Part shown: positions 508-29,151 of the stretch, piece by piece
How positions within the stretch are numbered: the first letter of the stretch is position 1
Layout: each line of letters opens with the position of its first letter
Notes under the pieces: generated by a model
What the model saw: only the letters and a program-made list of their open reading frames with translations
What the model was told of the DNA's origin: nothing
The model's database searches: none
Made by a program: the position numbers and the translations under genes
Sequence record: OR896824.1
Length of the DNA stretch: 64,000 bases
Source: Escherichia phage SmurfNell
Reading direction: 5' to 3' (one strand)

Positions 508-1359
508 TCACACATGCTTTTCTGGGACATAAATATTTCCCTCCATAAAAGCTTCAACTTGATCAATAAAGTGTTTATTACCAAAAACTTCGGCAGCTCC
601 AGCACGCCATACAGTAACACCACGTTTCTCATACTCAAGCTGTTCGTCATAACGAACTTGTGGGTTAACAACCATCATCTTAGTTCCACGACATACAGCA
701 GGAAATAATTCCCAGTTGAAGTTGATAACTTGGTTACTACAACCCACCACAATAACCATGTCATTGCTAGTAAGAGTATCAAACAGGTTGATTTGACCCA
801 TGTACCACGGAGCTGTCTCACCAAAGAACACCACGTTTGGTTTTACCCATTCGTAATCTTCAGGGGCAATCGCAGTATACCCAACATCTTCGATGATTTG
901 ATTGCGACCCTGATGATAGATCACCTCTTTCAAGTACCCGTGAGCGTGAATGATTTCATCACGAGGGATACCAGCACGTTCCAGAAGGTCATCAACGTTA
1001 GTAGTGAAGTTCTTCACGCTACCCGCATCATAACGCTGGAACCATTCTGCAATTCGCAGATGGGCAATGTTAGGCTCAACAGTCTGTAGTTCCTGACGAC
1101 GCATGTTGTAGAACTCATGAGTCTTGAGATACAGATCGTTACCATCTTCATCAATGCCAGGGAAACGAGCGCTGAAGTAGTTAGGATCATCTTCACCACA
1201 GAAGCGACGGAAGCCAGCTTCAAAGTTAGGCAAGCTACATACTTCCTCTAGATCGTACTCATCCCACAAAGATTTTCCACTAGCAGTATCAGTACGGAAA
1301 GCACGAACACCACTATCTACACTCAAACCTGCACCACTAACAACAATTAGTCTACGCAT
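508..1359 (-). CDS. SIR2-family NAD-dependent deacylase-like protein
   Basis: 283 aa ORF; N-terminal GAGLSVDSGVRAFR resembles the Sir2 GAGIS..SGIP.FR motif; HG dipeptide in IIHAHGY. Confidence 0.55.
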   Translation of the reverse strand: MRRLIVVSGAGLSVDSGVRAFRTDTASGKSLWDEYDLEEVCSLPNFEAGFRRFCGEDDPNYFSARFPGIDEDGNDLYLKTHEFYNMRRQELQTVEPNIAHLRIAEWFQRYDAGSVKNFTTNVDDLLERAGIPRDEIIHAHGYLKEVIYHQGRNQIIEDVGYTAIAPEDYEWVKPNVVFFGETAPWYMGQINLFDTLTSNDMVIVVGCSNQVINFNWELFPAVCRGTKMMVVNPQVRYDEQLEYEKRGVTVWRAGAAEVFGNKHFIDQVEAFMEGNIYVPEKHV

Positions 1360-12856: not shown

Positions 12857-12885
12857 TTACTTAAAGCCCTCGAATTTAGTATAAT
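12857..12885 (+). promoter_or_regulatory. early promoter with embedded inverted repeat
   Basis: TTACTT-17-TATAAT; AAAGCCCTC (12863-12871) in the spacer is complementary to GAGGGCTTT (12904-12912) covering the RBS. Confidence 0.5.
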
Positions 12886-12912
12886 ATTCGTATTGAAAGT
12901 GAGGAGGGCTTT

Positions 12913-13191: not shown

Positions 13192-13207
13192 TTTTTAAAA
13201 AATTCAT

Positions 13208-13236
13208 TTGCTAAACGCTTCAAAATTTCGTATAAT
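13208..13236 (+). promoter_or_regulatory. early promoter (TTGCTA-17-TATAAT)
   Basis: consensus hexamers followed by conserved ATAAATTGA box. Confidence 0.6.
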
Positions 13237-13274
13237 ATATCTCATAAATTGATCAACAAAAAGGAAAACAAATA

Positions 13275-13790
13275 ATGGCTAAGCAGAAAAACGCAAAAAC
13301 TCAGGCAGCTCCGGCAGTTAAAACTTTCGCTCAGACCGAAGCCAATCGTAAGGCTCGTCTGGAACGTCATCTGCGTAAGCATCCTACTGATGCTCAGGCT
13401 CAGACTGCCCTGAAGTCTGCGGCTCCGGTTCGCCAGAAGCCGAAGGCCAAGAACTCTACTCGCGCAACTGCTAAGCAGGTTGTGTTCATCAAGGGTGAAG
13501 GTCATAAGTCTGTACCGGTAACTCTGAGCTTTAACGGCGGTGCTGAGATGTTCGCCCGCAACGGTATGGCTCTGAAAGACTACGAAAAAGCAGTCAATCA
13601 GAAGCGTAAGCCAATGGCTGACGTAATGCGTGAATCCCGTGGACAGTTTGGCTCCGTTAAACCGAATATTTTCGGTGTAGAGTATAGCCGTGACAACGTT
13701 CGCGCTCTGTGCTACGGTATCGGTATTAAGTTTACTGGTGCTTCTGATCGTAAATCCGCTAAACCTACTCGTAAGCGTAAAGCGAAGTAA
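13275..13790 (+). CDS. basic hypothetical protein
   Basis: 171 aa, K/R/A-rich, codon usage suggests high expression. Confidence 0.55.
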   Translation: MAKQKNAKTQAAPAVKTFAQTEANRKARLERHLRKHPTDAQAQTALKSAAPVRQKPKAKNSTRATAKQVVFIKGEGHKSVPVTLSFNGGAEMFARNGMALKDYEKAVNQKRKPMADVMRESRGQFGSVKPNIFGVEYSRDNVRALCYGIGIKFTGASDRKSAKPTRKRKAK

Positions 13791-18789: not shown

Positions 18790-18864
18790 CGGGGTGTAGT
18801 CTAAGGGATAGGCAGGAGTCTTCTAAATTCCTTTATGCAGGTTCGAATCCTGTCACCTCGGCCA
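18790..18864 (+). tRNA. tRNA-Arg (anticodon UCU)
   Basis: Hand-folded cloverleaf: acceptor CGGGGTG/CACCTCG, anticodon loop CTTCTAA, T-loop TTCGAAT, encoded CCA. Confidence 0.65.
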
Positions 18865-18890
18865 ATTTTATTAACTGCTAGGAAAATAAA

Positions 18891-19091
18891 GTGAAAACAC
18901 GATATATAGTAAAAGTAGTAGGTGAACATTCACAAGTAAATACCACCGATGTTACAGCGCTAGCATTTGAAGTAGTCTCCGGTATAGTCATATTTCATAA
19001 CGGAGATATCAAAGCTCCTGAATTTGCTGTGGATGCTAGCCTGTTTATTTCTGCAACTAAAGTAACTGTAGTAGCTAACCCTTCTAAATAA
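18891..19091 (+). CDS. hypothetical protein
   Basis: 66 aa ORF with GTG start directly upstream of the SPFH gene. Confidence 0.3.
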   Translation: MKTRYIVKVVGEHSQVNTTDVTALAFEVVSGIVIFHNGDIKAPEFAVDASLFISATKVTVVANPSK

Positions 19092-19102
19092 TAAGGAAAT
19101 AT

Positions 19103-20047
19103 ATGTTTACTAAAAACACTAAAGAACTGACTTCCGATCAAAAAGTAATTCGTACTATTAAACGTTGGGGCGTTGGTGCTGTAGTTGGTCTTGGCGCTCT
19201 TATTCTGGCTCTCAATTCCTATACAGTTGTTCAGGACGGTACGGTTAAAACTCAGACTTTCCTGGGTAAAGTTAGTCCTAATCCTGTATTGCCGGGGTTC
19301 CATATTGTCAACCCATTCGCCTCTTTTGATACTTTTAGTACGAAAGATATTTCTATGAAACTGGATAAACTTCAGGTTCCTAGCCAGGATAAGTTTAAGT
19401 CCACTGTTGACATTACCGTTATGTTGCAGTTTGATGGTGCTAAAGCTCCTATGAACCGTGTTAACGCAGGTACTCAGGATCAAGCTCTGAACAAGTACGT
19501 TGAAGAGAAGATGCTATCTACGATTCGTGAGTTTGGTAAGTCTGTACCAAAAGCACAAGATCTGTTCGACGCTAAGATTCAGGCTCAACTGCAAACTGCT
19601 ATTCAGCAAGAAGTAGAAGAGTACGCGCGTCCTTATGGTTACACGGTTAAGCAAGTATTCCTTCAGGATATTACTCTGCCACCTGTAATCATGGAACAGG
19701 TACAAAACACAAAAGTTCGTGAAGAACAAGTTAACGCCGCTAAAGCTGAATTGGCTCGTGTTGAACAAGAAGCACAGCAGAAAGTTAAGCAAGCTGAAGC
19801 TGATCGTTCTGCTCGTGAAAACATGGCAGTAGCTAACGAACGTGACGCAGATGCTAAACTGTACGCAGCTAAGAAAGAAGCTGAAGCTAACGCCGCGCTG
19901 CAACGTACCATTACTCCTGAAATGATTCGTTGGAAGCAGCTGGAAGTTGAAATGCTTCGTGCTGAAAAATACCAAGGTGGTGTACCGCAGACTATTGTTG
20001 GTACTGGCTACGATGGTCAAATGATCATGGATATGCGTAACAAGTAA
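19103..20047 (+). CDS. SPFH/band-7 (prohibitin/HflK-like) membrane protein
   Basis: N-terminal TM helix WGVGAVVGLGALILAL, central SPFH-like region, C-terminal Ala/Glu/Lys-rich coiled coil. Confidence 0.55.
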   Translation: MFTKNTKELTSDQKVIRTIKRWGVGAVVGLGALILALNSYTVVQDGTVKTQTFLGKVSPNPVLPGFHIVNPFASFDTFSTKDISMKLDKLQVPSQDKFKSTVDITVMLQFDGAKAPMNRVNAGTQDQALNKYVEEKMLSTIREFGKSVPKAQDLFDAKIQAQLQTAIQQEVEEYARPYGYTVKQVFLQDITLPPVIMEQVQNTKVREEQVNAAKAELARVEQEAQQKVKQAEADRSARENMAVANERDADAKLYAAKKEAEANAALQRTITPEMIRWKQLEVEMLRAEKYQGGVPQTIVGTGYDGQMIMDMRNK

Positions 20048-20069
20048 TAGTTACACGTAATCTTCGAAC

Positions 20070-20106
20070 CAAGCCCGCGTTTCCTCCGAGAGCGCGGGCT
20101 TTTCTG
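20070..20106 (+). terminator. rho-independent terminator
   Basis: AAGCCCGCG...CGCGGGCTT hairpin followed by TTTCTG. Confidence 0.55.
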
Positions 20107-20259
20107 TATTTAAGGCAAAAGAAAAGCCCATAAGTTATTCAACTAAGGTCTTTAGTATTTAATTCTTTAATTCTTTAGAATCATATACTATTATTGTAGC
20201 AACAACGTGCTACCACTAAATGCCTTGAGATTTTTCCACTAAAAAGTTTAAAAATTCGA

Positions 20260-20288
20260 TTGCTTGAACGCTAAATTCTCTGTATAAT
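20260..20288 (+). promoter_or_regulatory. early promoter (TTGCTT-17-TATAAT)
   Basis: consensus hexamers plus ATAAATTTGAGAGAGG box. Confidence 0.6.
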
Positions 20289-20318
20289 ATATTTATAAAT
20301 TTGAGAGAGGAATCAAAT

Positions 20319-21374
20319 ATGATTAAGACTGGTCTAGTAATTGGTAAGTTCGCGCCATTAACGCGTGGTCATATTAACCTAATAAACACAGCAGCAACTA
20401 TGTGTGAACGAGTTATTGTTGTAGTTAGTCATGATAATCGTTGGCTGGATAAGCAGAACACACGTGATCAGGAAGTATTACAGTTAAAGAATCGACTTCG
20501 TTGGTTAGAACAAACTTACGCGGATATTGAGCACATTTCGGTAGAGTACATTATTGAAGATGATATTCCTGAATATCCGAATGGTTGGCCGGAATATGCT
20601 AGAATCCTTAATGAAAATTACGGACATTTGCCTGAGATCACCGTTTTCTCTAGCGAACTAGACTATGATGCAGAATATAAGAAATATCTGCCGAAGTTTG
20701 GTCATTATATTGTAGATTCTGATCGGACTCGTGTTCCAATCTCAGCTACAATGATTCGTAATGATCTTATGAAGTATTGGGAGTTTCTTCCTAGCGTAGT
20801 TCGTAAAGATTACGTGCGTAAGGTTGTAATCATTGGGACTGAAAGCTCGGGAAAGACTACTTTAACAAAATACCTTGCGAAGCTATACAACACTTCGTGG
20901 GTAGAAGAATATGGCCGAACGTATTGTGAAGTTGATCTAGTTGGTAACGAAAATCTACTTATCAGTGAAGATTACAGTAAAATTGCGTTCAGACACAAAG
21001 AGCTAGAGTTTGAGGCAGAACGTACTGCAAATAAGATCATGTTTGTAGACACAAATGCTTTTATTACTGAGTTCTACCACAGACTTTATGAACATCGTAA
21101 GAATCCTGTGGTTACAGCAATTGCAAAAGAAGAACATTACGATTTAGTAATTGTTCTAGCGCCTACTGTTAAGTGGGTAGATGATGGTTTACGTATTAAC
21201 TCCGATCGTTCAATTACTTCTGAACTGTTCGAGCAGATGAAGAAAGAATTTCCAAATCAGTTCCCTGAAGGGCGTACTGTTTACATCGACTCCCCGGACT
21301 ACAAAGTTCGTATGGACGAAGCAGTAAACGCAGTAGACTGGCTGATTCATCACTTTAACGTTGGAGAGTTTTAA
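20319..21374 (+). CDS. nadR: NadR-like bifunctional NMN adenylyltransferase / ribosylnicotinamide kinase
   Basis: N-terminal GKFAPLTRGHINLI (nucleotidyltransferase HxGH-type motif) and central Walker A IIGTESSGKTT; ATG at 20319. Confidence 0.65.
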   Translation: MIKTGLVIGKFAPLTRGHINLINTAATMCERVIVVVSHDNRWLDKQNTRDQEVLQLKNRLRWLEQTYADIEHISVEYIIEDDIPEYPNGWPEYARILNENYGHLPEITVFSSELDYDAEYKKYLPKFGHYIVDSDRTRVPISATMIRNDLMKYWEFLPSVVRKDYVRKVVIIGTESSGKTTLTKYLAKLYNTSWVEEYGRTYCEVDLVGNENLLISEDYSKIAFRHKELEFEAERTANKIMFVDTNAFITEFYHRLYEHRKNPVVTAIAKEEHYDLVIVLAPTVKWVDDGLRINSDRSITSELFEQMKKEFPNQFPEGRTVYIDSPDYKVRMDEAVNAVDWLIHHFNVGEF

Positions 21375-21375
21375 T

Positions 21376-22053
21376 ATGACTAACTATCTTGTAAATGACT
21401 TTAAAAACTGGAAACCTTTGGAATATCTGTGGCTGTTTATAGCAGTCGCCTTTATTAGTTTAGCAAACTATAATGGTACAGCTCTAGATTGGGCTACTGC
21501 AATAACCAATGTGGTTTGTGTTATTCTGGTTGCAAAAGGACGTGTTTCCAACTATATTTGGGGCTTAGTGGGTGTTCTTACATATGGTATTACAGCTTTA
21601 AACGCAGATCTTTATGGTAACGCTGCACTAAACCTGCTATACTACGTTCCTATGCAGTTTTATGGAATGTACTTATGGCATAAAAATAAGCCAAGTAATC
21701 TGCCAGATGTTCCAACTAAGTTTCTGACTAAAGCCCAAGCTCTGCTGACTCTAGGGATTCTAGCAGTAGCCACGTTAGGGTATGGTAGTTTCTTAGCTAC
21801 TACAGCTGATCCATTCCCAATGCTCGATGCATTTACTGCGGTTGGTAGTGTGATCGCTATGTGGCTTATGGTTAAGCAGTATGCCGAGCAGTGGCTGATC
21901 TGGATTGCTATTAACATTGGTACTGTGTACATTTGGCTTGTAACTGCTCAATCTACAGGTGCATCTTATGCAATCCTAGCAATGTGGCTAGTATTCTTAG
22001 GTAACTCTATTATGGGAGCCTATAAAGGATACTTTGTACGCGTTAACAAATAA
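21376..22053 (+). CDS. pnuC: nicotinamide riboside transporter PnuC-like
   Basis: About 225 aa polytopic membrane protein rich in Trp/Tyr, translationally coupled to the NadR-like gene. Confidence 0.55.
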   Translation: MTNYLVNDFKNWKPLEYLWLFIAVAFISLANYNGTALDWATAITNVVCVILVAKGRVSNYIWGLVGVLTYGITALNADLYGNAALNLLYYVPMQFYGMYLWHKNKPSNLPDVPTKFLTKAQALLTLGILAVATLGYGSFLATTADPFPMLDAFTAVGSVIAMWLMVKQYAEQWLIWIAINIGTVYIWLVTAQSTGASYAILAMWLVFLGNSIMGAYKGYFVRVNK

Positions 22054-22100
22054 AGTAGTTATAGCCCTCGCTTAGAGGGCTATTATACAGAAATTTTCAC

Positions 22101-22129
22101 TTGCTTAATATAGAAAATTTCTGTATAAT
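22101..22129 (+). promoter_or_regulatory. early promoter (TTGCTT-17-TATAAT)
   Basis: consensus hexamers plus ATAAATTCGAGAGAGG box. Confidence 0.6.
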
Positions 22130-22159
22130 ATATTTATAAATTCGAGAGAGGAATCAAAC

Positions 22160-22456
22160 ATGAAACGCATTGTACTTGCATTGACTCTAGTATCTACTTC
22201 TGTATTTGCTGCTCCGCAACAGGAACTTTGTCAAGTTCAGGTTTGTAATAAGCTAGAACGATTTACTCTAAACATTTGGTCCCATATTAAAGATAATATG
22301 GGTGAACAGTGTTTTGATATTGTTCTGCCAAAAGAACAGGCTATTCCTGGTGCTGTTCTTAGCTCAGAATCACGTTGGTGGCAGGGTTCTTCTATCAATC
22401 CAACTAAGAAGTCAGTGACACGTATCAAACAAGTATATCAGTGCAAGGTTCAGTAA
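22160..22456 (+). CDS. secreted/periplasmic hypothetical protein
   Basis: Signal peptide MKRIVLALTLVSTSVFA; several Cys. Confidence 0.5.
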   Translation: MKRIVLALTLVSTSVFAAPQQELCQVQVCNKLERFTLNIWSHIKDNMGEQCFDIVLPKEQAIPGAVLSSESRWWQGSSINPTKKSVTRIKQVYQCKVQ

Positions 22457-22464
22457 AATTTCAC

Positions 22465-22493
22465 TTGCTTAATGTCGAAATTTTCTGTATAAT
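22465..22493 (+). promoter_or_regulatory. early promoter driving a tRNA operon
   Basis: TTGCTT-17-TATAAT, 15 nt upstream of tRNA-Ser. Confidence 0.6.
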
Positions 22494-22507
22494 ATATTCA
22501 TAAATTC

Positions 22508-22601
22508 GGAAGATTAACCCTAATGGTAAGGGAGCTGTTTGCTAAACAGCCAGTAGCTGTGGAGACACGGTGTGCCAGTTCGAATCTGGCATCTTCCTCC
22601 A
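22508..22601 (+). tRNA. tRNA-Ser (anticodon GCU), class II
   Basis: Acceptor GGAAGAT/ATCTTCC, anticodon loop TTGCTAA, long variable arm, T-loop TTCGAAT, CCA. Confidence 0.7.
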
Positions 22602-22606
22602 GATTT

Positions 22607-22684
22607 GGTTCTCAAGCTCATTTGGTATGAGCCGTCGCCTCATAAGCGAAAGGTAGGTAGGTTCGAATCCTCCGGGAGCCACCA
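22607..22684 (+). tRNA. tRNA with CAU anticodon (Met, fMet or Ile2)
   Basis: Acceptor GGTTCTC/GGGAGCC, anticodon loop CTCATAA, T-loop TTCGAAT, CCA. Confidence 0.7.
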
Positions 22685-22701
22685 ATTAATTAGGAGACTA
22701 T

Positions 22702-22887
22702 ATGTCACGCTTTCGAGAAATTGCTCAAGAGCTAGAAGAATGTGCCTGCCCAAAATGCTTCGGAGCAGGTGAATGGAACGATGCTGAACCTGGTGATACA
22801 TGGTATAATACATACGTTTGTACACATTGTAATAGTTCTGGTATTAATCCTGAATGCGGTATTTCTCTAGATATTGAGCGAGGCTAA
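22702..22887 (+). CDS. zinc-ribbon small protein
   Basis: CACPKC...CTHCNSSG double Cys pairs. Confidence 0.45.
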   Translation: MSRFREIAQELEECACPKCFGAGEWNDAEPGDTWYNTYVCTHCNSSGINPECGISLDIERG

Positions 22888-23221
22888 GATGGATATCTAC
22901 ACTACACCAGCAGTAAACCTGATTGGCTCTTGCCTTGTGCATTTCCGCTTCTTCCAAACGGATGATAGCAAAGAGGAGTATACCTATCCTCTGATGGATT
23001 TTCAGATTGAGGACTTCTTCCGTGAAGTGCGTAATATCTCTGAGAACTTCTATTATGGCATGGATAAGGAAGACTTTGACATTAAGTTCCCTATAATCTC
23101 TCGTTATTTCCTAGAGCAGTCCGATGCTCGGTTTGAGAAGATTGAACACATGGAAGTAGCCTGGGCTATCCAGTTCGAAATTACTGGCTTTGCTCGATAC
23201 ATTCAAGGTTACGAACTATGA
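22874..23221 (+). CDS. hypothetical protein
   Basis: 115 aa ORF. Confidence 0.45.
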   Translation: MSEAKMDIYTTPAVNLIGSCLVHFRFFQTDDSKEEYTYPLMDFQIEDFFREVRNISENFYYGMDKEDFDIKFPIISRYFLEQSDARFEKIEHMEVAWAIQFEITGFARYIQGYEL

Positions 23222-23313
23222 AATTAAAAGATTATTATATTGGTTGGTTTGTAGGACTAATAGTAGGATTTTCACTGGGCTACAACTTGTATCAACTGAT
23301 AAACTGATTACAT

Positions 23314-23390
23314 GGGGGTGTAATCGAATTGGCATAGGTACTGGACTTAAAATTCAGGTTTTGTGGGTTCGAATCCCACCACCCCTACCA
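23314..23390 (+). tRNA. tRNA with UAA anticodon (Leu-type), class I architecture
   Basis: Acceptor GGGGGTG/CACCCCT (G1-U72), anticodon loop CTTAAAA, 5 nt variable loop, T-loop TTCGAAT, A73, CCA. Confidence 0.55.
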
Positions 23391-23542
23391 AATTAAGGAA
23401 ATAAAAATGAAAGCTATTAAGAAAGCACTACGTAAATTTATGTACTGTCGTTTTCATAGCATCAAGTCTTCGACTAATGGTACGACTTATGATCGCTATG
23501 ATCCTAAGTTTGGCTTACATTCTAAATAACTGGAGAAAACAA

Positions 23543-23749
23543 ATGGCTAATCCTGAAATTACAGCACAACGCTTTATGCTGAAAGGAATTATTGCTGAAG
23601 CAGGCATGACAGAAGAAGTTGCAGATTTTCAAAAGCAATTCCTCAATATTCTCACTCAAGCCAAAGAGCTAGGAGAGAAAGAACATGACGCAGCTGTTAT
23701 GGCAATCACGTTGGTTGGGCTTGATCTGGCAGAAGAATCAGGAGTTTAA
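23543..23749 (+). CDS. hypothetical protein
   Basis: ATG at 23543 with GGAGAAAA RBS, inside track ORF 23477..23749. Confidence 0.45.
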   Translation: MANPEITAQRFMLKGIIAEAGMTEEVADFQKQFLNILTQAKELGEKEHDAAVMAITLVGLDLAEESGV

Positions 23750-23779
23750 CTCCTCCAAGCAGAAATTTTAAAAATGTAC

Positions 23780-23809
23780 TTGCTTTTTACTTAAGATTTC
23801 TGCTATAAT
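23780..23809 (+). promoter_or_regulatory. early promoter (TTGCTT-18-TATAAT)
   Basis: consensus hexamers plus ATAAATTGATGAAGGAG box. Confidence 0.55.
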
Positions 23810-23839
23810 AGTTATATAAATTGATGAAGGAGTTAACGA

Positions 23840-24115
23840 ATGTCAAAACGTGTTACTGCAACTGGTGTTGAAAGTGCTGTTTGTAAATCCTGGGGTGGCT
23901 GGGAAGGTGAGATTGAATGGCTTTATTTCTACGACGTAGAACTTCTGCCGGAAGTCAAAGCTAAATGTGTGGAAGCCGGTATGGCTCCTGATGCAAAGGC
24001 TGATATCGAAATCACCATGCCTAAGCTAGAAGGTCGTGTAATTACGCTCAATGATGATTATGAAGAAGTGTTCGAGCTTCCCTTCAAACTGAGTGTCACT
24101 CCTAGCTTCGAGTAA
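23840..24115 (+). CDS. hypothetical protein
   Basis: 91 aa ORF. Confidence 0.5.
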   Translation: MSKRVTATGVESAVCKSWGGWEGEIEWLYFYDVELLPEVKAKCVEAGMAPDAKADIEITMPKLEGRVITLNDDYEEVFELPFKLSVTPSFE

Positions 24116-24151
24116 CTGATATAGCACTGAGCAAGTTCTTTAAAATTTGAC

Positions 24152-24180
24152 TTGCTCAGTCCTTCAAATCTTGATATAAT
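24152..24180 (+). promoter_or_regulatory. early promoter driving a tRNA operon
   Basis: TTGCTC-17-TATAAT upstream of tRNA-Tyr. Confidence 0.55.
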
Positions 24181-24243
24181 AGTTATCTAATTTGGAAACA
24201 TATTTAAAAGTGTTTAAACTAGTATTTGAATATTTCTAAATAT

Positions 24244-24334
24244 GTTGGATTAGTATCGTAGAGGTAGCGAAGCAGACTGTAAATCTGCCGACTCGGAAGG
24301 GTCTCGGGTGGTTCGACTCCATCATCCAACACCA
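24244..24334 (+). tRNA. tRNA-Tyr (anticodon GUA), class II
   Basis: Acceptor GTTGGAT/ATCCAAC, anticodon loop CTGTAAA, long variable arm, T-loop TTCGACT, CCA. Confidence 0.7.
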
Positions 24335-24341
24335 AATTTAA

Positions 24342-24418
24342 GTCCTGTTAGACAAACTGGTAAAGTCACTACCCTTTCAAGGTAGGATTTGCGGGTTCGA
24401 TCCCCGCACAGGACGCCA
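24342..24418 (+). tRNA. tRNA-Glu (anticodon UUC)
   Basis: Acceptor GTCCTGT/ACAGGAC, anticodon loop CTTTCAA, T-loop TTCGATC, CCA. Confidence 0.75.
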
Positions 24419-24425
24419 ATTTCTG

Positions 24426-24503
24426 CATTCCTAGAGTGTTACTGGACAGCATGTCGGTCTCCAAAACCGTACGGTCTAGGTTCGAGTCCTAGTAGGTTTG
24501 CCA
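24426..24503 (+). tRNA. tRNA-like element, possible tRNA-Trp (anticodon CCA); acceptor stem unresolved
   Basis: T-arm CTAGG-TTCGAGT-CCTAG and encoded CCA at 24501-24503; candidate anticodon loop CTCCAAA; no canonical 5' acceptor strand found by eye. Confidence 0.3.
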
Positions 24504-24509
24504 ATATTT

Positions 24510-24584
24510 GCGACTTTAGCTGAGATGGATTAGCGTCTCCCTGAAAAGGAGAAGAGGTACGATCGTTACGTACAGGTTGCACCA
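24510..24584 (+). tRNA. tRNA-Phe (anticodon GAA) with atypical T-loop
   Basis: Acceptor GCGACTT/AGGTTGC, anticodon loop CTGAAAA, T-arm GTACG-ATCGTTA-CGTAC, CCA. Confidence 0.6.
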
Positions 24585-24595
24585 ATTTGAAGGAG

Positions 24596-24874
24596 ATGCT
24601 GATGCATCCTGAAAACTTCTTTATTTACTGTGCGGATAAGTCATTAAAACGCAGAATTAACAAAGTCTACCATTATCGTGCTAGTCAACAGCCTTATGTT
24701 TATGCTTTTGATGGAGAAACCATTCCACTAAAGCAGTTGGCATGTGATTACATGGTCTTGAAGAACTTTGATGAGACAAAGATCTCAAGCGTTCATAATC
24801 GACAGAATCCATTAACGTGGAAGTATAAGAAGAAAAAGAAAGGCATCAAATTTCTGAAAAATGTAGTTGCTTAA
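24596..24874 (+). CDS. hypothetical protein
   Basis: ATG at 24596 after GAAGGAG RBS, 12 nt after the tRNA-Phe CCA. Confidence 0.5.
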   Translation: MLMHPENFFIYCADKSLKRRINKVYHYRASQQPYVYAFDGETIPLKQLACDYMVLKNFDETKISSVHNRQNPLTWKYKKKKKGIKFLKNVVA

Positions 24875-24895
24875 ATCCTTAAAGTTCTGTATAAT
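24867..24895 (+). promoter_or_regulatory. early promoter (TTGCTT-17-TATAAT)
   Basis: consensus hexamers plus ATAAATTGAACTGGAGAAG box. Confidence 0.55.
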
Positions 24896-24924
24896 TATTA
24901 CATAAATTGAACTGGAGAAGCAAC

Positions 24925-25149
24925 ATGACAGAACAAGAATTAAAAGAACGTAAGCTGGTAATGCTTCGCTTACTAAACATTTTCTCTGGTATGGATGGTG
25001 GTATTGACTTCGTTCAACTACGCACTTTTGTAGAAGAAGCTGAAGGCGAATCTATTACTAAAATCCTTAAACATATGGGTTTATTACTAGACGCTGCTAA
25101 TGTAGCTACTGAATATAAATTAGAAGATCTACCGGAGCGTGTTTCATGA
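24925..25149 (+). CDS. hypothetical protein
   Basis: ATG at 24925 (track start 24907 is TTG). Confidence 0.45.
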   Translation: MTEQELKERKLVMLRLLNIFSGMDGGIDFVQLRTFVEEAEGESITKILKHMGLLLDAANVATEYKLEDLPERVS

Positions 25150-25337
25150 AAATGTTAGTTAAATTTAAGTGTTGTGGTTCTGAACATATTTTCACTCGTT
25201 ATAGAGAGTTTAAGATGTGTGAGTGTGGTAAGTCAGGCTATGATGCTGGAGATGGCTATTATGCTAGATCTATAGGACATTCTAAAGATCTAGAGTTTAC
25301 TAATCTCGAAAAGCAAGATAAATCGACCGTTGGCTGA
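25146..25337 (+). CDS. zinc-ribbon small protein
   Basis: CCGSEH...CECGKSGYD Cys pairs; 3' end overlaps the tRNA-Cys 5' end. Confidence 0.4.
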   Translation: MKMLVKFKCCGSEHIFTRYREFKMCECGKSGYDAGDGYYARSIGHSKDLEFTNLEKQDKSTVG

Positions 25338-25399
25338 ATGGCTTAGGCGGAGGCCTGCAAAACCTCCTTATGTGAGTTCGAATCTCATGCGGTCGTCCA
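25324..25399 (+). tRNA. tRNA-Cys (anticodon GCA)
   Basis: Acceptor CGACCGT/GCGGTCG, anticodon loop CTGCAAA, U73, T-loop TTCGAAT, CCA. Confidence 0.6.
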
Positions 25400-25406
25400 A
25401 ATTTTA

Positions 25407-25489
25407 GGGTCGTTAGCCAAGCGGTTTGGCGGTGGACTGTTAATCCATGTCGAAAGACAACGTAGGTTCGAATCCTACACGGCCCGCCA
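25407..25489 (+). tRNA. class II-type tRNA carrying a GUU (Asn-type) anticodon
   Basis: Acceptor GGGTCGT/ACGGCCC, anticodon arm GTGGA-CTGTTAA-TCCAT, 13 nt variable arm, G73, T-loop TTCGAAT, CCA. Confidence 0.55.
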
Positions 25490-25591
25490 TATTCTGTGTA
25501 GAGTTAAGTAAACCGGTAGCCAACCAGCTATCATTACTGATATTGAATTCAGTCACAGATACCATTTTCATTAATAACTGAGGAAATAGAT

Positions 25592-25777
25592 ATGACAACT
25601 CGTGCAATTGCTCGACTAGAAGCTGATCGTGATAGTCTGATTAATAATATTAAGGTTTGGGATCAAGAAATTGAAAACCAAAAACTGACATTAATTCAAG
25701 ATATGCAGCAACAGAATGCCCGTCGTGAAGCTCTAAAAGAGGTTGAGGAAGCTATCGAAAAACTCAAAACTGAGTAA
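25592..25777 (+). CDS. hypothetical coiled-coil protein
   Basis: 61 aa ORF with GAGGAAA RBS. Confidence 0.45.
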   Translation: MTTRAIARLEADRDSLINNIKVWDQEIENQKLTLIQDMQQQNARREALKEVEEAIEKLKTE

Positions 25778-25786
25778 ATAAATTAT

Positions 25787-25863
25787 GCGATCGGGGCTGG
25801 CTTGGTAATGGTACTCCCCTGTCACGGGAGAAAATGTGGGTTCGAATCCCATCGGTCGCGCCA
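25787..25863 (+). tRNA. tRNA-Asp (anticodon GUC)
   Basis: Acceptor GCGATCG/CGGTCGC, anticodon loop CTGTCAC, T-loop TTCGAAT, CCA. Confidence 0.75.
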
Positions 25864-25939
25864 ATTTTTGCAGGACGCTGGTATAGATAACCACCGCGTG
25901 GGAAGTGTCTATATTTAGAGCACTGCAAAACATAATAAT

Positions 25940-26015
25940 ACATCCATAGCTCAATGGTTAGAGCTACCGCCTCTTAAGCGGAGGGTTCTAGGTTCAAGTC
26001 CTAGTGGGTGTACCA
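25940..26015 (+). tRNA. tRNA-Lys (anticodon CUU)
   Basis: Acceptor ACATCCA/TGGGTGT, D-arm GCTC..GAGC, anticodon loop CTCTTAA, T-loop TTCAAGT, CCA. Confidence 0.6.
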
Positions 26016-26228
26016 AACATCAGAGTAGCGTGATGTACTGCAAAGACCCAAAGTCCGGGGTGGACTTCTTGATTCAAAGGAGCAGGCATTAATTATCATT
26101 CTAGCGTGGTGGAGAGGGGACACCAGCTTGCCGAGGGTAGAAGCTCGTTCGATTCGAGTGAAAGAATGGTTCTCGTAAATCCGCACAAGTGATAGCAGGT
26201 TCAAGTCCTGCCTAGATTGACTTATTAT

Positions 26229-26302
26229 GCGTTCGTAGTTAAAAGGTATAATTTTTGGTTGCCAACCAGAAGTTGAGGGTTCGATTCCCTCCGACCGCAC
26301 CA
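26229..26302 (+). tRNA. tRNA-Gly (anticodon GCC)
   Basis: Acceptor GCGTTCG/CGACCGC (one mismatch), anticodon loop TTGCCAA, T-loop TTCGATT, CCA. Confidence 0.65.
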
Positions 26303-26550
26303 AATTTAGGTTTCTGCTTCCTAGAGAACTGACGCCTAGATAAACAAGGCGATGAGTTTCCGGCCGGTTCTAGTCGCTGAAAATCCTCCCGACCAGGTAG
26401 GTGTAAGTAAACGAAAGTTTACTTATTAAGTAAGTCCGACACATCGGCGGGTGTGTTCTAGTACTTAAAGAAGGTCTCGCAAACTTTCTCGCTAGCATGA
26501 GTTGATAGCTCGGTGACTTACCTAATAAGTAAATTTATTAAAAAATGTAG

Positions 26551-26579
26551 TTGCTATTTAGCTTAATTCTCTGTATAAT
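26551..26579 (+). promoter_or_regulatory. early promoter driving a tRNA operon
   Basis: TTGCTA-17-TATAAT upstream of tRNA-Pro. Confidence 0.55.
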
Positions 26580-26611
26580 ATATTTTATAAAGTGAGTTAA
26601 CAAAGAATATT

Positions 26612-26689
26612 CTCCGTGTAGCTCAGTTTGGCCAGAGCGTTTCGTTTGGGGCGATAGGGTCGGGGGTTCAAATCCTCCCACGGAGACCA
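26612..26689 (+). tRNA. tRNA-Pro (anticodon UGG)
   Basis: Acceptor CTCCGTG/CACGGAG, D-arm GCTC..GAGC, anticodon loop TTTGGGG, T-loop TTCAAAT, CCA. Confidence 0.75.
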
Positions 26690-26695
26690 AACAAT

Positions 26696-26773
26696 TGCGG
26701 GTTAGATCTCTGGTAGAGATCGCTAGTCTCATAAGCTAGAAAGAGGTAGGTTCGATTCCTGCACCCGCTTCCA
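26696..26773 (+). tRNA. tRNA with CAU anticodon (second copy; initiator-like 1-72 mismatch)
   Basis: Acceptor TGCGGGT/ACCCGCT with U1xU72 mismatch, anticodon loop CTCATAA, T-loop TTCGATT, CCA. Confidence 0.65.
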
Positions 26774-26794
26774 ATTTAATAGAAGGATTTCTAA

Positions 26795-26959
26795 ATGAAA
26801 TTGTTTCGTTTAAAAGTAAGTGATATACGTTCTAGTAAAGATCGTAAGAAGTATCCACTAGCTCACTACGGTAAAGATGAAAACGAAGTGATGGCGGAAT
26901 TTGGTATTAATCATCCTTACTTGAAAATATACTCTATCAAAGAAGTATACATGTATTAA
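26795..26959 (+). CDS. small hypothetical protein (54 aa)
   Basis: ORF with AAGGA RBS between two tRNAs, below the track cutoff. Confidence 0.35.
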   Translation: MKLFRLKVSDIRSSKDRKKYPLAHYGKDENEVMAEFGINHPYLKIYSIKEVYMY

Positions 26960-26961
26960 AT

Positions 26962-27040
26962 AGATCGCTAGCTCAATTGGTTTAGCAGCACCCGGCTTTT
27001 AACCGGAAGGTTCTGGGTTCGAGTCCCAGGCGGTCTACCA
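26962..27040 (+). tRNA. tRNA-Lys (anticodon UUU)
   Basis: Acceptor AGATCGC/GCGGTCT, anticodon arm CCGG-CTTTTAA-CCGG, T-loop TTCGAGT, CCA. Confidence 0.75.
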
Positions 27041-27057
27041 ATTTAAAGGAATTTGTT

Positions 27058-27375
27058 ATGAATATTAACAAAGTTCTAGAAACAATATCAGAAATGTCTG
27101 GTAGAGCTGGAAAACGCTTTACTGAACTATGTATTAAAAATCAAAAAATACCAGAACATCAATGTCATTATTGTCGAGACTGTGAACAATACCATGAAAT
27201 GTGTGTGGTTGAAGATTGGATCTGGGATCAGATAAGAAAAGAACAATCCAAAGATATTGTTCTATGTTTTACTTGTATGGAACGACGTTTAGGACGTAAA
27301 ATTACTCTTAAAGATCTTAAACATGTTCCCTGTAACGCTCCTTACTTCATTGGTTTTAGAATGGAGAGATTTTGA
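27058..27375 (+). CDS. Cys-rich zinc-binding protein
   Basis: CHYCRDCEQYHEMC and CFTC motifs. Confidence 0.5.
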   Translation: MNINKVLETISEMSGRAGKRFTELCIKNQKIPEHQCHYCRDCEQYHEMCVVEDWIWDQIRKEQSKDIVLCFTCMERRLGRKITLKDLKHVPCNAPYFIGFRMERF

Positions 27376-27518
27376 TGATAATCTGGTTTTACTTAATGAA
27401 ACAAAAAGTCAAGCAGTACAACGTATTTTCTGCTGATTTTACTATTGGAATGTTCTTAGCAGGATTATGTGAGTTTCTGTTTGAAGCATTCTTAATCGGA
27501 AGTCTTTTGCTCGGTTAG
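27375..27518 (+). CDS. small membrane peptide (47 aa)
   Basis: Hydrophobic ORF overlapping the previous stop, below the track cutoff. Confidence 0.3.
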   Translation: MIIWFYLMKQKVKQYNVFSADFTIGMFLAGLCEFLFEAFLIGSLLLG

Positions 27519-27582
27519 TTTAATGGGAGAACCCCGTCTTTACACGGCGGTTGCGATAGTTCGATTCTATCACCGAGTACCA
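27509..27582 (+). tRNA. tRNA-Val (anticodon UAC)
   Basis: Acceptor GCTCGGT/ACCGAGT, anticodon arm CCGTC-TTTACAC-GGCGG, T-loop TTCGATT, CCA. Confidence 0.65.
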
Positions 27583-27601
27583 ATTAACTCAAAATAAGGA
27601 A

Positions 27602-27961
27602 TTGCAAATGCAATTATCAAGCAAGGTTCAAGGCTACTTCGGTCATGTAACAATGGAGTTCGCTATCTCTAAAGGTTGGGACTTCGAACAAGATTTAGCT
27701 GAGTTCTACAAAGATATTGATCTGAACGTACCGTACATGGGACTCTCTACTGGTCAGGAAATCACAGAAGCCGATGTATTCAAGGCAAGTCAAGGTGAGA
27801 TAACACCTAGTTTTGCCGAGTTCTGGTTAGGAATTACTCTGAAAGATGATGCACCGGATGGTGGTGTGGTTATGCAGAGTATGCACTCTGGAAGCTCTGA
27901 TTACCTTTTCGTTAGCGACGTTAAGGAAATACAAGAAATCTGCAAAAATGTACTTGCTTGA
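27602..27961 (+). CDS. hypothetical protein
   Basis: 119 aa acidic ORF. Confidence 0.5.
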   Translation: MQMQLSSKVQGYFGHVTMEFAISKGWDFEQDLAEFYKDIDLNVPYMGLSTGQEITEADVFKASQGEITPSFAEFWLGITLKDDAPDGGVVMQSMHSGSSDYLFVSDVKEIQEICKNVLA

Positions 27962-27982
27962 TACTTAATTTCTTGTTATAAT
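27954..27982 (+). promoter_or_regulatory. early promoter driving a structured leader and tRNA operon
   Basis: TTGCTT-17-TATAAT; transcript would start with the TTGATGAGGAGAAATCCTCATCAA hairpin. Confidence 0.55.
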
Positions 27983-28018
27983 ATTTATATAAATTGATGA
28001 GGAGAAATCCTCATCAAA

Positions 28019-28244
28019 GTTCACTAAGGTATTAGCTCGACCTAGGACTGGCTGCCAAAAAGCACGGTTGCAATTAGACCCCTAATGGCGGGGGATACTT
28101 TGCAAGAAGTTCTAGATTAGTCCACTAGATTCAGCGGCAACTGAATAGTGTATCGGGTTTGTGAAGAGCGGTTATCCTCTACTGGCTAATGTCTGAGGGT
28201 AATACGCACGCCGAGCTAATAGCCTTAGTAAACTTAAAGATTTT
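28019..28244 (+). other. non-coding leader between promoter and tRNA-Ala (possible small RNA)
   Basis: About 225 nt without an ORF, GC-balanced unlike the AT-rich spacers. Confidence 0.25.
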
Positions 28245-28318
28245 GGGGATATAGTTTAATGGTAGAACATCTGCTTTGCACGCAGAAGACGAGGGTTCAA
28301 CTCCCCCTTTCTCCACCA
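28245..28318 (+). tRNA. tRNA-Ala (anticodon UGC)
   Basis: Acceptor GGGGATA/TTTCTCC with G3-U70, anticodon arm TCTGC-TTTGCAC-GCAGA, T-loop TTCAACT, CCA. Confidence 0.6.
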
Positions 28319-28324
28319 AAATTT

Positions 28325-28400
28325 GGGGTCATAGGTTATTTGGTTAAACTTACTGCCTTGCAAGCAGTGGAACTCAGTTCAATTCTGAGTGACTCCACCA
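28325..28400 (+). tRNA. tRNA-Ala-like second copy (anticodon UGC)
   Basis: Acceptor GGGGTCA/TGACTCC with G3-U70, anticodon arm ACTGC-CTTGCAA-GCAGT, T-loop TTCAATT, CCA. Confidence 0.5.
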
Positions 28401-28413
28401 AATTAGAGGAAGC

Positions 28414-28875
28414 ATGGCTAGAACAGATATATTGGAAAGAAAGGATGAAATTCTTCTCTGGATAGAAGAAAATCAACCCAAAGCTGAAATTGCTAGAAGA
28501 TTACGCTGCAAAGTTGATACACTGAATACTTATCTGAAAAAGATGGGAATACAATATTCAGGTAACTCTGCTAGAAAAGGTTTTATACGTTCTGAGATAC
28601 AGGATGGGTATATTCCGGCAGTGAATTACTTTTACAAAAATAGCCCAATATCTTCTAGTCAGCTTAGAATAAAGATACTACGTGATGGCTTAAAACCTCA
28701 CAAATGTGAAAATTGTAATTTATCTGAATGGATGGGAGTTCCAATCCCCTTAGAGTTAGAGCATAAAGATGGTGATCATTATAATAATGAGTGGGATAAT
28801 TTAGCTTTATTATGTCCCAACTGTCATACACTAACAGATACACATTCAGGTAAGAATAAAGGAACATACGCGTGA
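28414..28875 (+). CDS. HNH endonuclease with N-terminal HTH, inserted in the tRNA island
   Basis: C-terminal HKCENCN...EHKDGDHYNNEWDNLALLCPNCH HNH motif. Confidence 0.75.
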   Translation: MARTDILERKDEILLWIEENQPKAEIARRLRCKVDTLNTYLKKMGIQYSGNSARKGFIRSEIQDGYIPAVNYFYKNSPISSSQLRIKILRDGLKPHKCENCNLSEWMGVPIPLELEHKDGDHYNNEWDNLALLCPNCHTLTDTHSGKNKGTYA

Positions 28876-28946
28876 TTGATGGAATTGGCATACATACCGT
28901 CCTTAGAAGTCGGGTTTTGAGGGTTCGAATCCCTTGTCACGCACCA
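28870..28946 (+). tRNA. tRNA with UAG anticodon (Leu-type), class I architecture
   Basis: Acceptor GCGTGAT/GTCACGC, anticodon loop CTTAGAA, 5 nt variable loop, A73, CCA; scaffold resembles the tRNA at 23314; 5' end overlaps the HNH stop. Confidence 0.5.
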
Positions 28947-28963
28947 ATTTTGTAGTAAACAAC

Positions 28964-29063
28964 GGAAGAGCAAATCGATAGGTGACGAAAACCGCTTGGA
29001 AAGTGGCTGACTTGTGAAAGCAGGCTTGAGAGTTCGAATCTCTCTTCTTCCGCCAAACAATAG
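28964..29063 (+). tRNA. tRNA-like element, about 100 nt, fold unresolved
   Basis: Complementary termini GGAAGAG/TTCTTCC, T-arm GAGAG-TTCGAAT-CTCTC, G73, CCA; too long for a standard tRNA. Confidence 0.3.
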
Positions 29064-29069
29064 AAGATA

Positions 29070-29151
29070 GGACGTAGTGGTACGTAACCGGTCTTGAAAA
29101 CCGGCCCGCTGTAGTGATACGGTGATGGTTCGACTCCATTATCTTCTGCCA
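29070..29151 (+). tRNA. tRNA-Ser (anticodon UGA), class II
   Basis: Acceptor AGAAGAT/ATCTTCT, anticodon arm CCGGT-CTTGAAA-ACCGG, long variable arm, G73, CCA. Confidence 0.7.

What the first reader, a model, noticed from the sequence alone, without database searches (positions are those of the whole stretch)
20319..22053. Phage-encoded NAD+ salvage module (NadR-like enzyme plus PnuC-like transporter), with a SIR2-like protein elsewhere in the window
A NadR-type NMN adenylyltransferase/ribosylnicotinamide kinase is translationally coupled to a PnuC-like nicotinamide riboside importer, expressed from a consensus early promoter. Together they could rebuild NAD+ from nicotinamide riboside during infection, plausibly to counter NAD+-depleting abortive-infection defences or to supply nucleotide metabolism. 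A SIR2-family NAD-consuming protein sits at 508..1359.
Basis: partly seen in the sequence, partly recalled or inferred. Interest (0 to 1): 0.6.

Follow-up and report, generated by a model that had tools for sequence, protein, structure and literature searches.

The report
Known phage NAD+ rebuilding operon (NARP3)
This is a real two-gene phage operon, a nicotinamide riboside importer plus an enzyme that turns the riboside into NAD+, but it is nearly identical to the NARP3 anti-defence system of phage TrudiRoth that was published with crystal structures in 2026, so it is not new.

Summary
Window 20319-21374 (+) encodes a NadR-like NMN adenylyltransferase/ribosylnicotinamide kinase that lacks the DNA-binding domain. 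Window 21376-22053 (+) encodes a PnuC-like nicotinamide riboside transporter. Both sit behind a T5-type early promoter, between two terminator-like hairpins. The window is the early region of a T5-like phage (Demerecviridae, Epseptimavirus).

The module differs by 1 nt in 1735 from phage SuperGirl (Bas29). It encodes proteins 348/351 and 223/225 identical to Bas30_86 and Bas30_87 of phage TrudiRoth. Those two proteins are the published NARP3 system (Yan et al., Sci Adv 2026, PMC13464706; PDB 9x6f/9x6h). They were shown to import NR, convert it to NAD+, and rescue T7 and lambda from Sir2-HerA and DSR1 NAD+ depletion. All 17 Bas30_86 residues named in that paper as ligand-site or mutated positions, and all 3 transporter NR-binding residues, are conserved here.

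It was proposed in 2022-2024 and demonstrated in 2026.

The distant SIR2-like gene (508-1359, minus strand) is real. It is a phage-specific, zinc-less sirtuin next to a HAD "Swiss-army-knife" RNA-repair gene. It is not genetically tied to the NAD+ module. The only open point is function in the native phage.

The parts
20071..20101 (+). Terminator-like hairpin with a T-run. It ends the upstream SPFH/Band-7 gene (19103-20047) and isolates the module from upstream transcription.
   Evidence: 12-bp stem, 7 G-C pairs, followed by TTCTGTATTT.: -20.5 kcal/mol, z = -3.45.
20260..20288 (+). T5-type sigma-70 early promoter: TTGCTT, 17 nt, TATAAT.
   Evidence: Sequence. It is one of 26 matches to this pattern in the window (23 on the + strand), against a mean of 1.04 in 100 Markov-1 simulations. 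It is conserved in TrudiRoth. Its resemblance to T5 promoter PN25 is from my memory and was not tested.
20289..20318 (+). Conserved 5' leader ATATATTTATAAATTTGAGAGAGGAATCAAAT, with a GAGG Shine-Dalgarno sequence.
   Evidence: The stretch from the -10 element through the leader matches 39 of 41 bases at 22101-22159, in front of the next gene.
20319..21374 (+). nadR-like gene (351 aa): N-terminal NMN adenylyltransferase domain and C-terminal ribosylnicotinamide kinase domain, with no HTH domain. Orthologue of Bas30_86.
   Evidence: domains. PDB 9x6f, E = 8e-240; 348/351 identical to TrudiRoth Bas30_86, and all 17 checked residues are conserved; one nucleotide difference from SuperGirl, giving T215I.
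21376..22053 (+). pnuC-like nicotinamide riboside transporter gene (225 aa). Orthologue of Bas30_87.
   Evidence: family matches; 4qtn PnuC, E = 1.4e-32; 223/225 identical to Bas30_87. N45, Q94 and N180 are present; 100% identical to the SuperGirl protein.
22061..22083 (+). Hairpin directly after the pnuC stop codon (9-bp G+C-rich stem, 5-nt loop). It is the probable end of the two-gene transcript, although the U-tract is weak.
   Evidence: sequence.: -18 kcal/mol, z = -4.93, and 0 of 200 shuffles fold as well. The consensus terminator scan did not call it because there is no T-run.
508..1359 (-). SIR2-like gene (283 aa), a separate unit and not part of the operon. It is a phage-specific sirtuin that lacks the zinc-binding cysteines.
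   Evidence: SIR2, 8.4e-22; phrog_2162, 1.6e-107; the GAGLS, TTNVD, HG and VVFFGE motifs align with E. coli CobB, but there are no Cys residues where CobB has its zinc-site cysteines; no match to any PADLOC defence family.

Best explanation
This is the NARP3 NAD+ reconstitution pathway of an Epseptimavirus (T5-like phage).

Proposed mechanism, step by step:
1. Early in infection, host sigma-70 RNA polymerase transcribes a two-gene mRNA from the T5-type promoter at 20260-20288 (inferred).
2. The PnuC-like protein inserts into the inner membrane, as a trimer in the published homologue, and lets external nicotinamide riboside (NR) in.
3. The HTH-less NadR-like enzyme phosphorylates NR to NMN in its C-terminal kinase domain. 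It then adenylates NMN to NAD+ in its N-terminal nucleotidyltransferase domain. Phosphorylation also traps the imported NR inside the cell.
4. This refills the NAD+/NADH pool when host defences such as Sir2-HerA or DSR1 hydrolyse NAD+, so phage replication can continue.

Steps 2-4 were shown experimentally for the 99%-identical TrudiRoth proteins. Here they are inferred from near-identity and from conservation of every tested residue. Unlike NARP1 and NARP2, this pathway does not recycle the breakdown products (ADPR, nicotinamide). It depends on an outside supply of NR.
For: - Domains.
- Enzyme identity: NadR-like protein 348/351 identical to the crystallised Bas30_86 (PDB 9x6f/9x6h). The differences are V109I, I215T and R260S, none at a published functional residue.
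- Enzyme residues present: K10, F11, S37, E80, P84, G89, F110, S112, D115, V139, I141, K163, D164, R167, K168, E230, D275.
- Transporter: PnuC-like protein 223/225 identical to Bas30_87, with N45, Q94 and N180 present.
- Published experiments (PMC13464706): Bas30_87 binds NR (Kd about 0.66 uM). Bas30_86 converts NR to NAD+. Co-expression restores NAD+/NADH depleted by EcSir2-HerA, AbSir2-HerA and DSR1, and raises T7 and lambda plating 10^3- to 10^4-fold. Either gene alone, or point mutants, fail.
- Purifying selection versus TrudiRoth: 23 nt changes give 3 aa changes in nadR, and 14 nt changes give 2 aa changes in pnuC.
- Transcription-unit anatomy.
- The same nadR-then-pnuC pair is annotated in hundreds of phage records.
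Against: - No experiment exists on this phage or on any native NARP3 phage. The authors list this as a limitation.
- The published rescue used plasmid expression and unrelated test phages.
- The pathway needs external NR, and NR availability in the phage's natural setting is unknown.
- The module is dispensable within the genus: Epseptimavirus SUT_E1620 lacks it.
- The I215 substitution is unique relative to Bas29 and Bas30 and is untested. It falls where the aligned H. influenzae NadR residue differs.
Confidence: 0.9

Rival explanations
1. The module is a general auxiliary metabolic gene pair rather than a counter-defence. It raises NAD+ supply for the phage's own needs, namely NAD+-consuming phage enzymes such as the SIR2-like protein and the redox demand of massive nucleotide synthesis. 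Any effect on defence systems is a by-product.
For: The module sits in the early region among nucleotide-metabolism genes: NrdD, NrdAB, DHFR, ThyA and dNMP kinase. PHROGs files both genes under 'moron, auxiliary metabolic gene and host takeover'. The phage encodes at least one NAD+-using enzyme. The native counter-defence role is untested.
Against: The published data show a strong, specific rescue from NAD+-depleting systems. Tequintaviruses and SUT_E1620 keep the sirtuin and the nucleotide-metabolism genes without the module, so those functions do not need it. The two readings are also not mutually exclusive.
Confidence: 0.25
2. The module and the SIR2-like gene form one functional system: the phage sirtuin consumes NAD+ and NARP3 exists to pay for it.
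For: Both genes are present in this window and in most close Epseptimavirus relatives. About 204 phage records carry NadR at 90% identity or more, and about 175 carry the sirtuin at 90% or more. KVP40-like vibriophages also carry a sirtuin together with NAD+ salvage genes.
Against: The genes are 19 kb apart, on opposite strands, in separate transcription units. The sirtuin occurs in 979 phage records, including the Tequintavirus GEC_vB_N7 and the Epseptimavirus SUT_E1620, both of which lack nadR-pnuC at this locus. The nadR-pnuC pair occurs in about 355 Vibrio phage records against only 50 Vibrio records with the sirtuin. The sirtuin's conserved neighbour is a HAD_SAK_2 RNA-repair gene, not an NAD+ synthesis gene.
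Confidence: 0.08
3. The genes are recently captured host genes, passengers with no adaptive role.
For: NadR and PnuC are ordinary enterobacterial proteins.
Against: The enzyme is only distantly similar to cellular NadR proteins of known structure (190 bits to H. influenzae NadR, against 798 bits to the phage structure). It lacks the HTH domain. It falls below the TIGR01526 equivalog cutoff (273 bits against 341). In E. coli the two genes are unlinked (PMC13464706). The pair is conserved under purifying selection in roughly 200 close relatives, and a similar pair occurs in unrelated phages.
Confidence: 0.02

Closest known systems
NARP3 (Bas30_86/Bas30_87 of Escherichia phage TrudiRoth; Yan et al., Sci Adv 2026, PMC13464706; PDB 9x6f, 9x6h)
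   Same: Same gene order and the same 1-nt spacing between the genes. The promoter core and leader are identical, with only scattered differences further upstream. The proteins are 99.1% identical in both cases, and all published functional residues are conserved. The phage genus (Epseptimavirus) and the flanking genes, from SPFH to the tRNA-Ser/Met pair, are also the same.
   Different: There are three conservative substitutions in the enzyme (V109, I215, R260) and two in the transporter (A25, F116). Nothing differs structurally or in organisation.
bas29_0084/0085 of Escherichia phage SuperGirl (BASEL collection Bas29)
   Same: 1 nt difference in 1735. PnuC is 100% identical and NadR is 350/351 identical. 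The Sir2-like protein is also 100% identical.
   Different: The rest of the window is about 95% identical to SuperGirl, with several indels, so this is a related but distinct isolate.
Cellular NadR (E. coli/Salmonella trifunctional NadR; H. influenzae NadR, PDB 1lw7) and PnuC (Neisseria mucosa, PDB 4qtn)
   Same: Same two catalytic domains and motifs: GKFxP..xGH, ISATxIR, Walker A GxESSGKT and WVDDGLR. PnuC has the same fold family.
   Different: The phage enzyme has no HTH repressor domain. Its first motif reads TRGH instead of HTGH. The two genes are fused into one operon, whereas they are unlinked in E. coli. No NadR box or riboswitch lies upstream.
NARP1 (Adps + Namat) and NARP2 (Nampt + Nmnat) phage NAD+ reconstitution pathways (Osterman et al. 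2024, bioRxiv 10.1101/2024.02.11.579819)
   Same: Same outcome: the phage rebuilds NAD+ to survive NAD+-depleting defence. All three are two-gene operons.
   Different: The chemistry and substrate differ. NARP1 recycles ADPR plus nicotinamide, and NARP2 uses nicotinamide plus PRPP. This module imports external NR and needs a membrane transporter.

Membership tests
NARP3 (phage NadR-like + PnuC-like operon) | Adjacent, co-oriented nadR-like gene followed by a pnuC-like gene in a phage genome | tested here: met
   20319-21374 (+) and 21376-22053 (+), with a 1-nt spacer. The phage context is shown.
NARP3 (phage NadR-like + PnuC-like operon) | The enzyme has NMNAT and RNK domains but lacks the N-terminal HTH domain | tested here: met
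   Pfam CTP_transf_like covers residues 7-147 and AAA_28 covers 168-314. The NCBIfam NadR model matches from position 65 of 411.
NARP3 (phage NadR-like + PnuC-like operon) | Enzyme residues named in the paper as ligand-site or mutated positions: K10, F11, S37, E80, P84, G89, F110, S112, D115, V139, I141, K163, D164, R167, K168, E230, D275 | tested here: met
   17 of 17 are identical. The residue list comes from PMC13464706.
NARP3 (phage NadR-like + PnuC-like operon) | Transporter NR-binding residues N45, Q94 and N180 | tested here: met
   3 of 3 are present.
NARP3 (phage NadR-like + PnuC-like operon) | NR import, NR-to-NAD+ conversion, and rescue from Sir2-HerA/DSR1 NAD+ depletion | not testable with these tools
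   Shown only for the 99%-identical TrudiRoth proteins, in heterologous assays.
Sirtuin (SIR2) superfamily, for the gene at 508-1359 (-) | Rossmann NAD+-binding motifs (GAGxS, TQNxD-like, xVVxFGE, G[TC]S) and the catalytic His of the HG motif | tested here: met
   GAGLS, TTNVD, IHAHG, NVVFFGE and GCS align with E. coli CobB (1s5p). Pfam SIR2 8.4e-22.
Classical protein deacylase sirtuins (CobB/Sir2Tm type) | Zinc-ribbon module with four cysteines between the HG motif and the VVxFGE motif | tested here: not met
   There are no cysteines in residues 140-175, where CobB has its Cys residues. All NCBIfam deacylase models score far below their cutoffs (92 bits against 243).
Defence-type SIR2 NADases (ThsA, DSR, SIR2-HerA) | Match to PADLOC defence SIR2 profiles | tested here: not met
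   No PADLOC family reaches E <= 0.01.
Viral 'RNA-repair' sirtuin clade (Iyer et al. 2022, neighbourhood type 3, prototype Escherichia phage SP15) | Conserved linkage to a HAD 'Swiss-army-knife' phosphatase gene | tested here: met
   In SuperGirl, whose sirtuin is 100% identical, a HAD_SAK_2 protein (6.8e-18) lies two small ORFs downstream. Its first 65 codons are in the window at 1-195 (-) and are identical. The predicted 2'-phosphotransferase activity itself is untested anywhere.

The most novel reading that the evidence does not exclude
In the native T5-like phage, the NARP3 module may not be primarily an anti-defence device. It may instead be the NAD+ supply for a phage-run, NAD+-consuming RNA (tRNA) repair economy. 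That economy would combine the zinc-less sirtuin, acting as a KptA-like 2'-phosphate remover, with the adjacent HAD_SAK phosphatase, the polynucleotide kinase annotated in the closest relative, and the 30 phage tRNAs. On this reading NAD+ rebuilding and RNA repair would jointly answer host anticodon-nuclease and NADase defences. The evidence here does not exclude this reading, but gene distribution argues against an obligatory link.
Probability: 0.08. Interest if true: 0.55.

Novelty: already known. Interest (0 to 1): 0.12.

Why it matters
NAD+ depletion is one of the most common bacterial abortive-infection strategies. Phage pathways that rebuild NAD+ help decide which phages can infect which strains, and they are candidates for arming therapeutic phages. 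This particular pathway was flagged in 2022, hypothesised in 2024 and demonstrated, with structures, in 2026. The window therefore only adds one more near-identical copy. What remains worth doing is testing the pathway in its native phage, which has not been done, and testing the neighbouring phage sirtuin, whose activity is only predicted.

Tried and rejected
- **Host NadR operator.** I searched for TGTTTA-N6-TAAACA, a consensus recalled from memory, allowing up to 2 mismatches. There were 8 hits in the window against 6.9 expected, and none lies near the promoter. There is no sign of NAD-responsive repression.
- **Riboswitch or leader RNA.** A permissive Rfam scan of 19900-22600 found only a tRNA and two sub-threshold chance hits.
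- **Repeat-mediated cassette.** I tested whether the module is excised or inserted by recombination between its two near-identical flanking promoter/leader copies. In SUT_E1620, which lacks the module, both promoters are gone and the left breakpoint lies about 50 nt upstream of the first promoter. The indel is therefore not a simple repeat-to-repeat deletion.
- **Defence-type SIR2.** The sirtuin matches no PADLOC family.
- **Alternative start codons.** TTG starts at 20301 (nadR) and 21361 (pnuC) are listed by the ORF tool. I rejected them in favour of the ATGs. The ATGs have proper Shine-Dalgarno spacing, match the TrudiRoth and SuperGirl annotations, and reproduce the residue numbering of the published mutants.

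Full report
**What is at the coordinates**

The interval 20319-22053 contains two tightly packed genes on the + strand.
- An ATG at 20319 opens a 351-codon ORF that ends with TAA at 21372-21374.
- One base later, an ATG at 21376 opens a 225-codon ORF that ends at 22053.

The first protein matches Pfam CTP_transf_like (residues 7-147; 31.1 bits against a cutoff of 21) and AAA_28 (residues 168-314; E = 3.1e-31). It also matches the NCBIfam NadR model PRK08099 above its cutoff (255 bits against 201). That match starts at model position 65 of 411, so the helix-turn-helix repressor domain of enterobacterial NadR is missing.

The second protein matches Pfam NMN_transporter (E = 2.2e-43) and the PnuC equivalog TIGR01528 (121 bits against 42). 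It aligns over nearly its whole length with the crystallised Neisseria mucosa PnuC, 4qtn.

It is a 283-aa ORF at 508-1359 on the minus strand, with Pfam SIR2 at E = 8.4e-22.

**Transcription unit**

- Upstream, the SPFH/Band-7 gene (19103-20047) ends in a strong terminator-like hairpin at 20071-20101.
- At 20260-20288 lies TTGCTT, 17 nt, TATAAT. It is followed by the leader ATATATTTATAAATTTGAGAGAGGAATCAAAT and then the ATG.
- The consensus scan tool reported a weaker overlapping match here. A pattern search shows that this is one of 26 promoters of the same build in the window. Of these, 23 are on the + strand, mostly between 4.7 and 43.5 kb. The mean in 100 Markov-1 simulations is 1.04.
- 'Consensus early promoter' is therefore fair as a description of a phage promoter class. 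Against the E. coli consensus, however, the -35 hexamer matches only 3 of 6 positions. The resemblance to phage T5 promoter PN25 is from my memory and was not tested.
- After pnuC there is a 9-bp G+C-rich hairpin at 22061-22083 (-18 kcal/mol, z = -4.9). It has only a weak U-tract.
- A second promoter and leader then follows. It is 39/41 identical to the first and drives the next gene at 22160.
- The pnuC start has a GGAG inside the end of nadR, and stop and start are one base apart. Translational coupling is plausible but not shown. The genes do not overlap.
- No NadR operator and no known riboswitch lies upstream.

**What phage this is**

The 4-kb region is 96-98.5% identical to many Epseptimavirus genomes (T5-like phages, Demerecviridae). 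The best matches are Escherichia phages TrudiRoth (BASEL Bas30) and SuperGirl (Bas29).

Against SuperGirl, the nadR-pnuC module differs at one nucleotide in 1735, which gives T215I in the enzyme. The part of the window that could be compared, about 50 kb, is about 95% identical with several indels.

The SuperGirl annotation shows that the window is the early region. It contains NrdD, PhoH, NrdAB, DHFR, ThyA, RNase H, the tRNA cluster (30 tRNAs by ARAGORN), the lysis genes, phosphatases and a polynucleotide kinase.

**It is the published NARP3 system**

The literature search found Yan et al., Sci Adv 2026 (PMC13464706). That paper names the TrudiRoth gene pair Bas30_86/Bas30_87 'NARP3'. The paper reports the following:
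- The PnuC-like Bas30_87 is a trimer that binds nicotinamide riboside (NR) with Kd about 0.66 uM.
- The HTH-less NadR-like Bas30_86 converts NR to NMN and then to NAD+. Crystal structures were solved for the apo form and the NAD+-bound form.
- Co-expressing both genes restores the NAD+ and NADH depleted by two Sir2-HerA systems and by DSR1.
- Co-expression raises T7 and lambda plating 10^3- to 10^4-fold. Either gene alone, or point mutants, fail.

The window enzyme is 348/351 identical to Bas30_86 and to PDB chain 9x6f_A (E = 8e-240). The window transporter is 223/225 identical to Bas30_87.

All 17 enzyme residues the paper names as ligand-site or mutated positions are present. So are the three transporter residues N45, Q94 and N180.

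Between the window and TrudiRoth, 23 nucleotide changes in nadR give only 3 amino-acid changes, and 14 changes in pnuC give only 2. This indicates purifying selection.

The idea itself is older than the 2026 paper. Iyer et al. 2022 catalogued phage NadR (PMC9503650). Osterman et al. 2024 explicitly proposed the NadR-PnuC operon of BASEL phages as a further NAD+ reconstitution pathway.

**Mechanism and what is inferred**

Shown for the 99%-identical homologues:
- NR binding by the transporter;
- two-step NR to NMN to NAD+ catalysis;
- restoration of NAD+ and rescue from NAD+-depleting defence.

Inferred here:
- The window proteins do the same. This rests on near-identity and on conservation of every tested residue.
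- Transcription is early and sigma-70 dependent.
- Translation of the two genes is coupled.

Not shown anywhere: that the module matters for its own phage. The authors state that they could not test the native phage.

**Distribution**

tblastn finds NadR-like genes in 791 of 50,697 phage records and PnuC-like genes in 784. The breakdown by host organism is nearly identical for the two genes.
- Roughly 200 close Epseptimavirus relatives carry both.
- About 350-390 Vibrio records carry them. In the ICP1 records, the two hits sit at matching coordinates in the same order.
- Bacillus, Enterococcus and Lactobacillus phages, jumbo phages and others also carry them.

This is wider than the 124 operons counted in the paper, but it is the same phenomenon.

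The module is not universal in the genus. Epseptimavirus SUT_E1620 goes directly from the SPFH gene to the 98-aa gene and lacks about 1.93 kb, including both promoters. The Tequintavirus GEC_vB_N7 has unrelated genes at this position.

**The SIR2-like gene**

- It keeps the sirtuin NAD+-binding motifs and the catalytic His: GAGLS, TTNVD, IHAHG, NVVFFGE, GCS. It has no cysteines where CobB has its zinc ribbon.
- It falls far below every NCBIfam deacylase cutoff.
- It matches no PADLOC defence family.
- It belongs to a phage-specific family, phrog_2162 (E = 1.6e-107).
- It occurs in 979 phage records, including Tequintaviruses, rV5-like phages, KVP40-like phages and jumbo phages.
- In SuperGirl, whose sirtuin is 100% identical, a HAD_SAK_2 protein ('HAD domain in Swiss Army Knife RNA repair proteins', E = 6.8e-18) lies two small ORFs downstream. 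Its first 65 codons are at window 1-195 (-) and are identical.

This is the third gene neighbourhood that Iyer et al. 2022 described for a viral sirtuin clade. They predict that the clade removes RNA 2'-phosphates in a KptA-like, NAD+-consuming repair reaction.

Calling the protein 'NAD-consuming' is therefore reasonable. It is not linked to the NAD+ module, for three reasons:
- It is 19 kb away, on the opposite strand.
- It is retained by phages that lack nadR-pnuC.
- It appears absent from most Vibrio phages that carry nadR-pnuC: 50 Vibrio records have the sirtuin against 355 with NadR.

**Verdict**

The remaining questions are experimental: the native-phage phenotype, NR availability in nature, and the activity of the phage sirtuin. 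Interest is low.

Noticed in passing
window 508-1359 (-) and 1-195 (-): The SIR2-like protein lacks the zinc-ribbon cysteines, matches no defence SIR2 family, and belongs to the phage-only family phrog_2162. A HAD_SAK_2 ('Swiss army knife' RNA repair) gene starts at 195 on the minus strand and runs off the window start. This is the neighbourhood predicted by Iyer et al. 2022 to be an NAD+-dependent RNA 2'-phosphate removal system, and its activity has never been tested.
   Followed up: partly
window 4758-43500 (+), plus 2073, 4047 and 61701 (-): There are 26 promoters of one build: TTGCTT/TTGCTA, 16-18 nt, TATAAT, usually followed by ATAAATTGA(T)GAGAGG and a start codon. Chance expectation is 1.0. 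23 of the 26 are on the + strand. They look like the phage's early promoter set.
   Followed up: partly
window 20260-20318 and 22101-22159: The promoter-plus-leader copies on either side of the nadR-pnuC module are each other's closest relatives in the window (39/41 from the -10 element through the leader; the next best is 33/41). This hints at duplication or gene conversion when the module was acquired.
   Followed up: partly
L003 (Escherichia phage SUT_E1620) 1346-1521, versus window 20047-22160: A phage of the same genus lacks the whole module and both promoters (about 1.93 kb). Instead it has a second terminator-like hairpin after the SPFH gene. The breakpoints do not coincide with the promoter repeats.
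   Followed up: yes
phage records MW794143.1 and MW794145.1 (Vibrio phage ICP1), about 11.8-13.6 kb: Vibrio cholerae phage ICP1 records carry a nadR-like gene (46% identity) at 12569-13573 and a pnuC-like gene (34% identity) at 11855-12493, annotated as hypothetical proteins. The two hits come from different ICP1 records, so adjacency and gene order are inferred from matching coordinates. About 350-390 Vibrio phage records match each gene, so the pair is much more widespread than the 124 operons reported.
   Followed up: no
window 19103-20047 (+) and 22160-22456 (+): The genes flanking the module are an SPFH/Band-7 membrane protein (Pfam 2.9e-19; labelled 'lipoprotein' in PHROGs and RefSeq) and a 98-aa protein of unknown function with an N-terminal signal-peptide-like segment (phrog_6894).
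   Followed up: no
window 18790-31100 (+): 30 tRNA genes lie in a 12-kb cluster interleaved with small ORFs, each block with its own early-type promoter. A polynucleotide kinase is annotated in the corresponding early region of SuperGirl (bas29_0173).
   Followed up: no
window 20319-21374, codon 215: Ile at residue 215 of the NadR-like enzyme, where both SuperGirl and TrudiRoth have Thr. This is the only difference from SuperGirl in the whole 1735-nt module. The aligned H. influenzae NadR residue also differs.
   Followed up: yes
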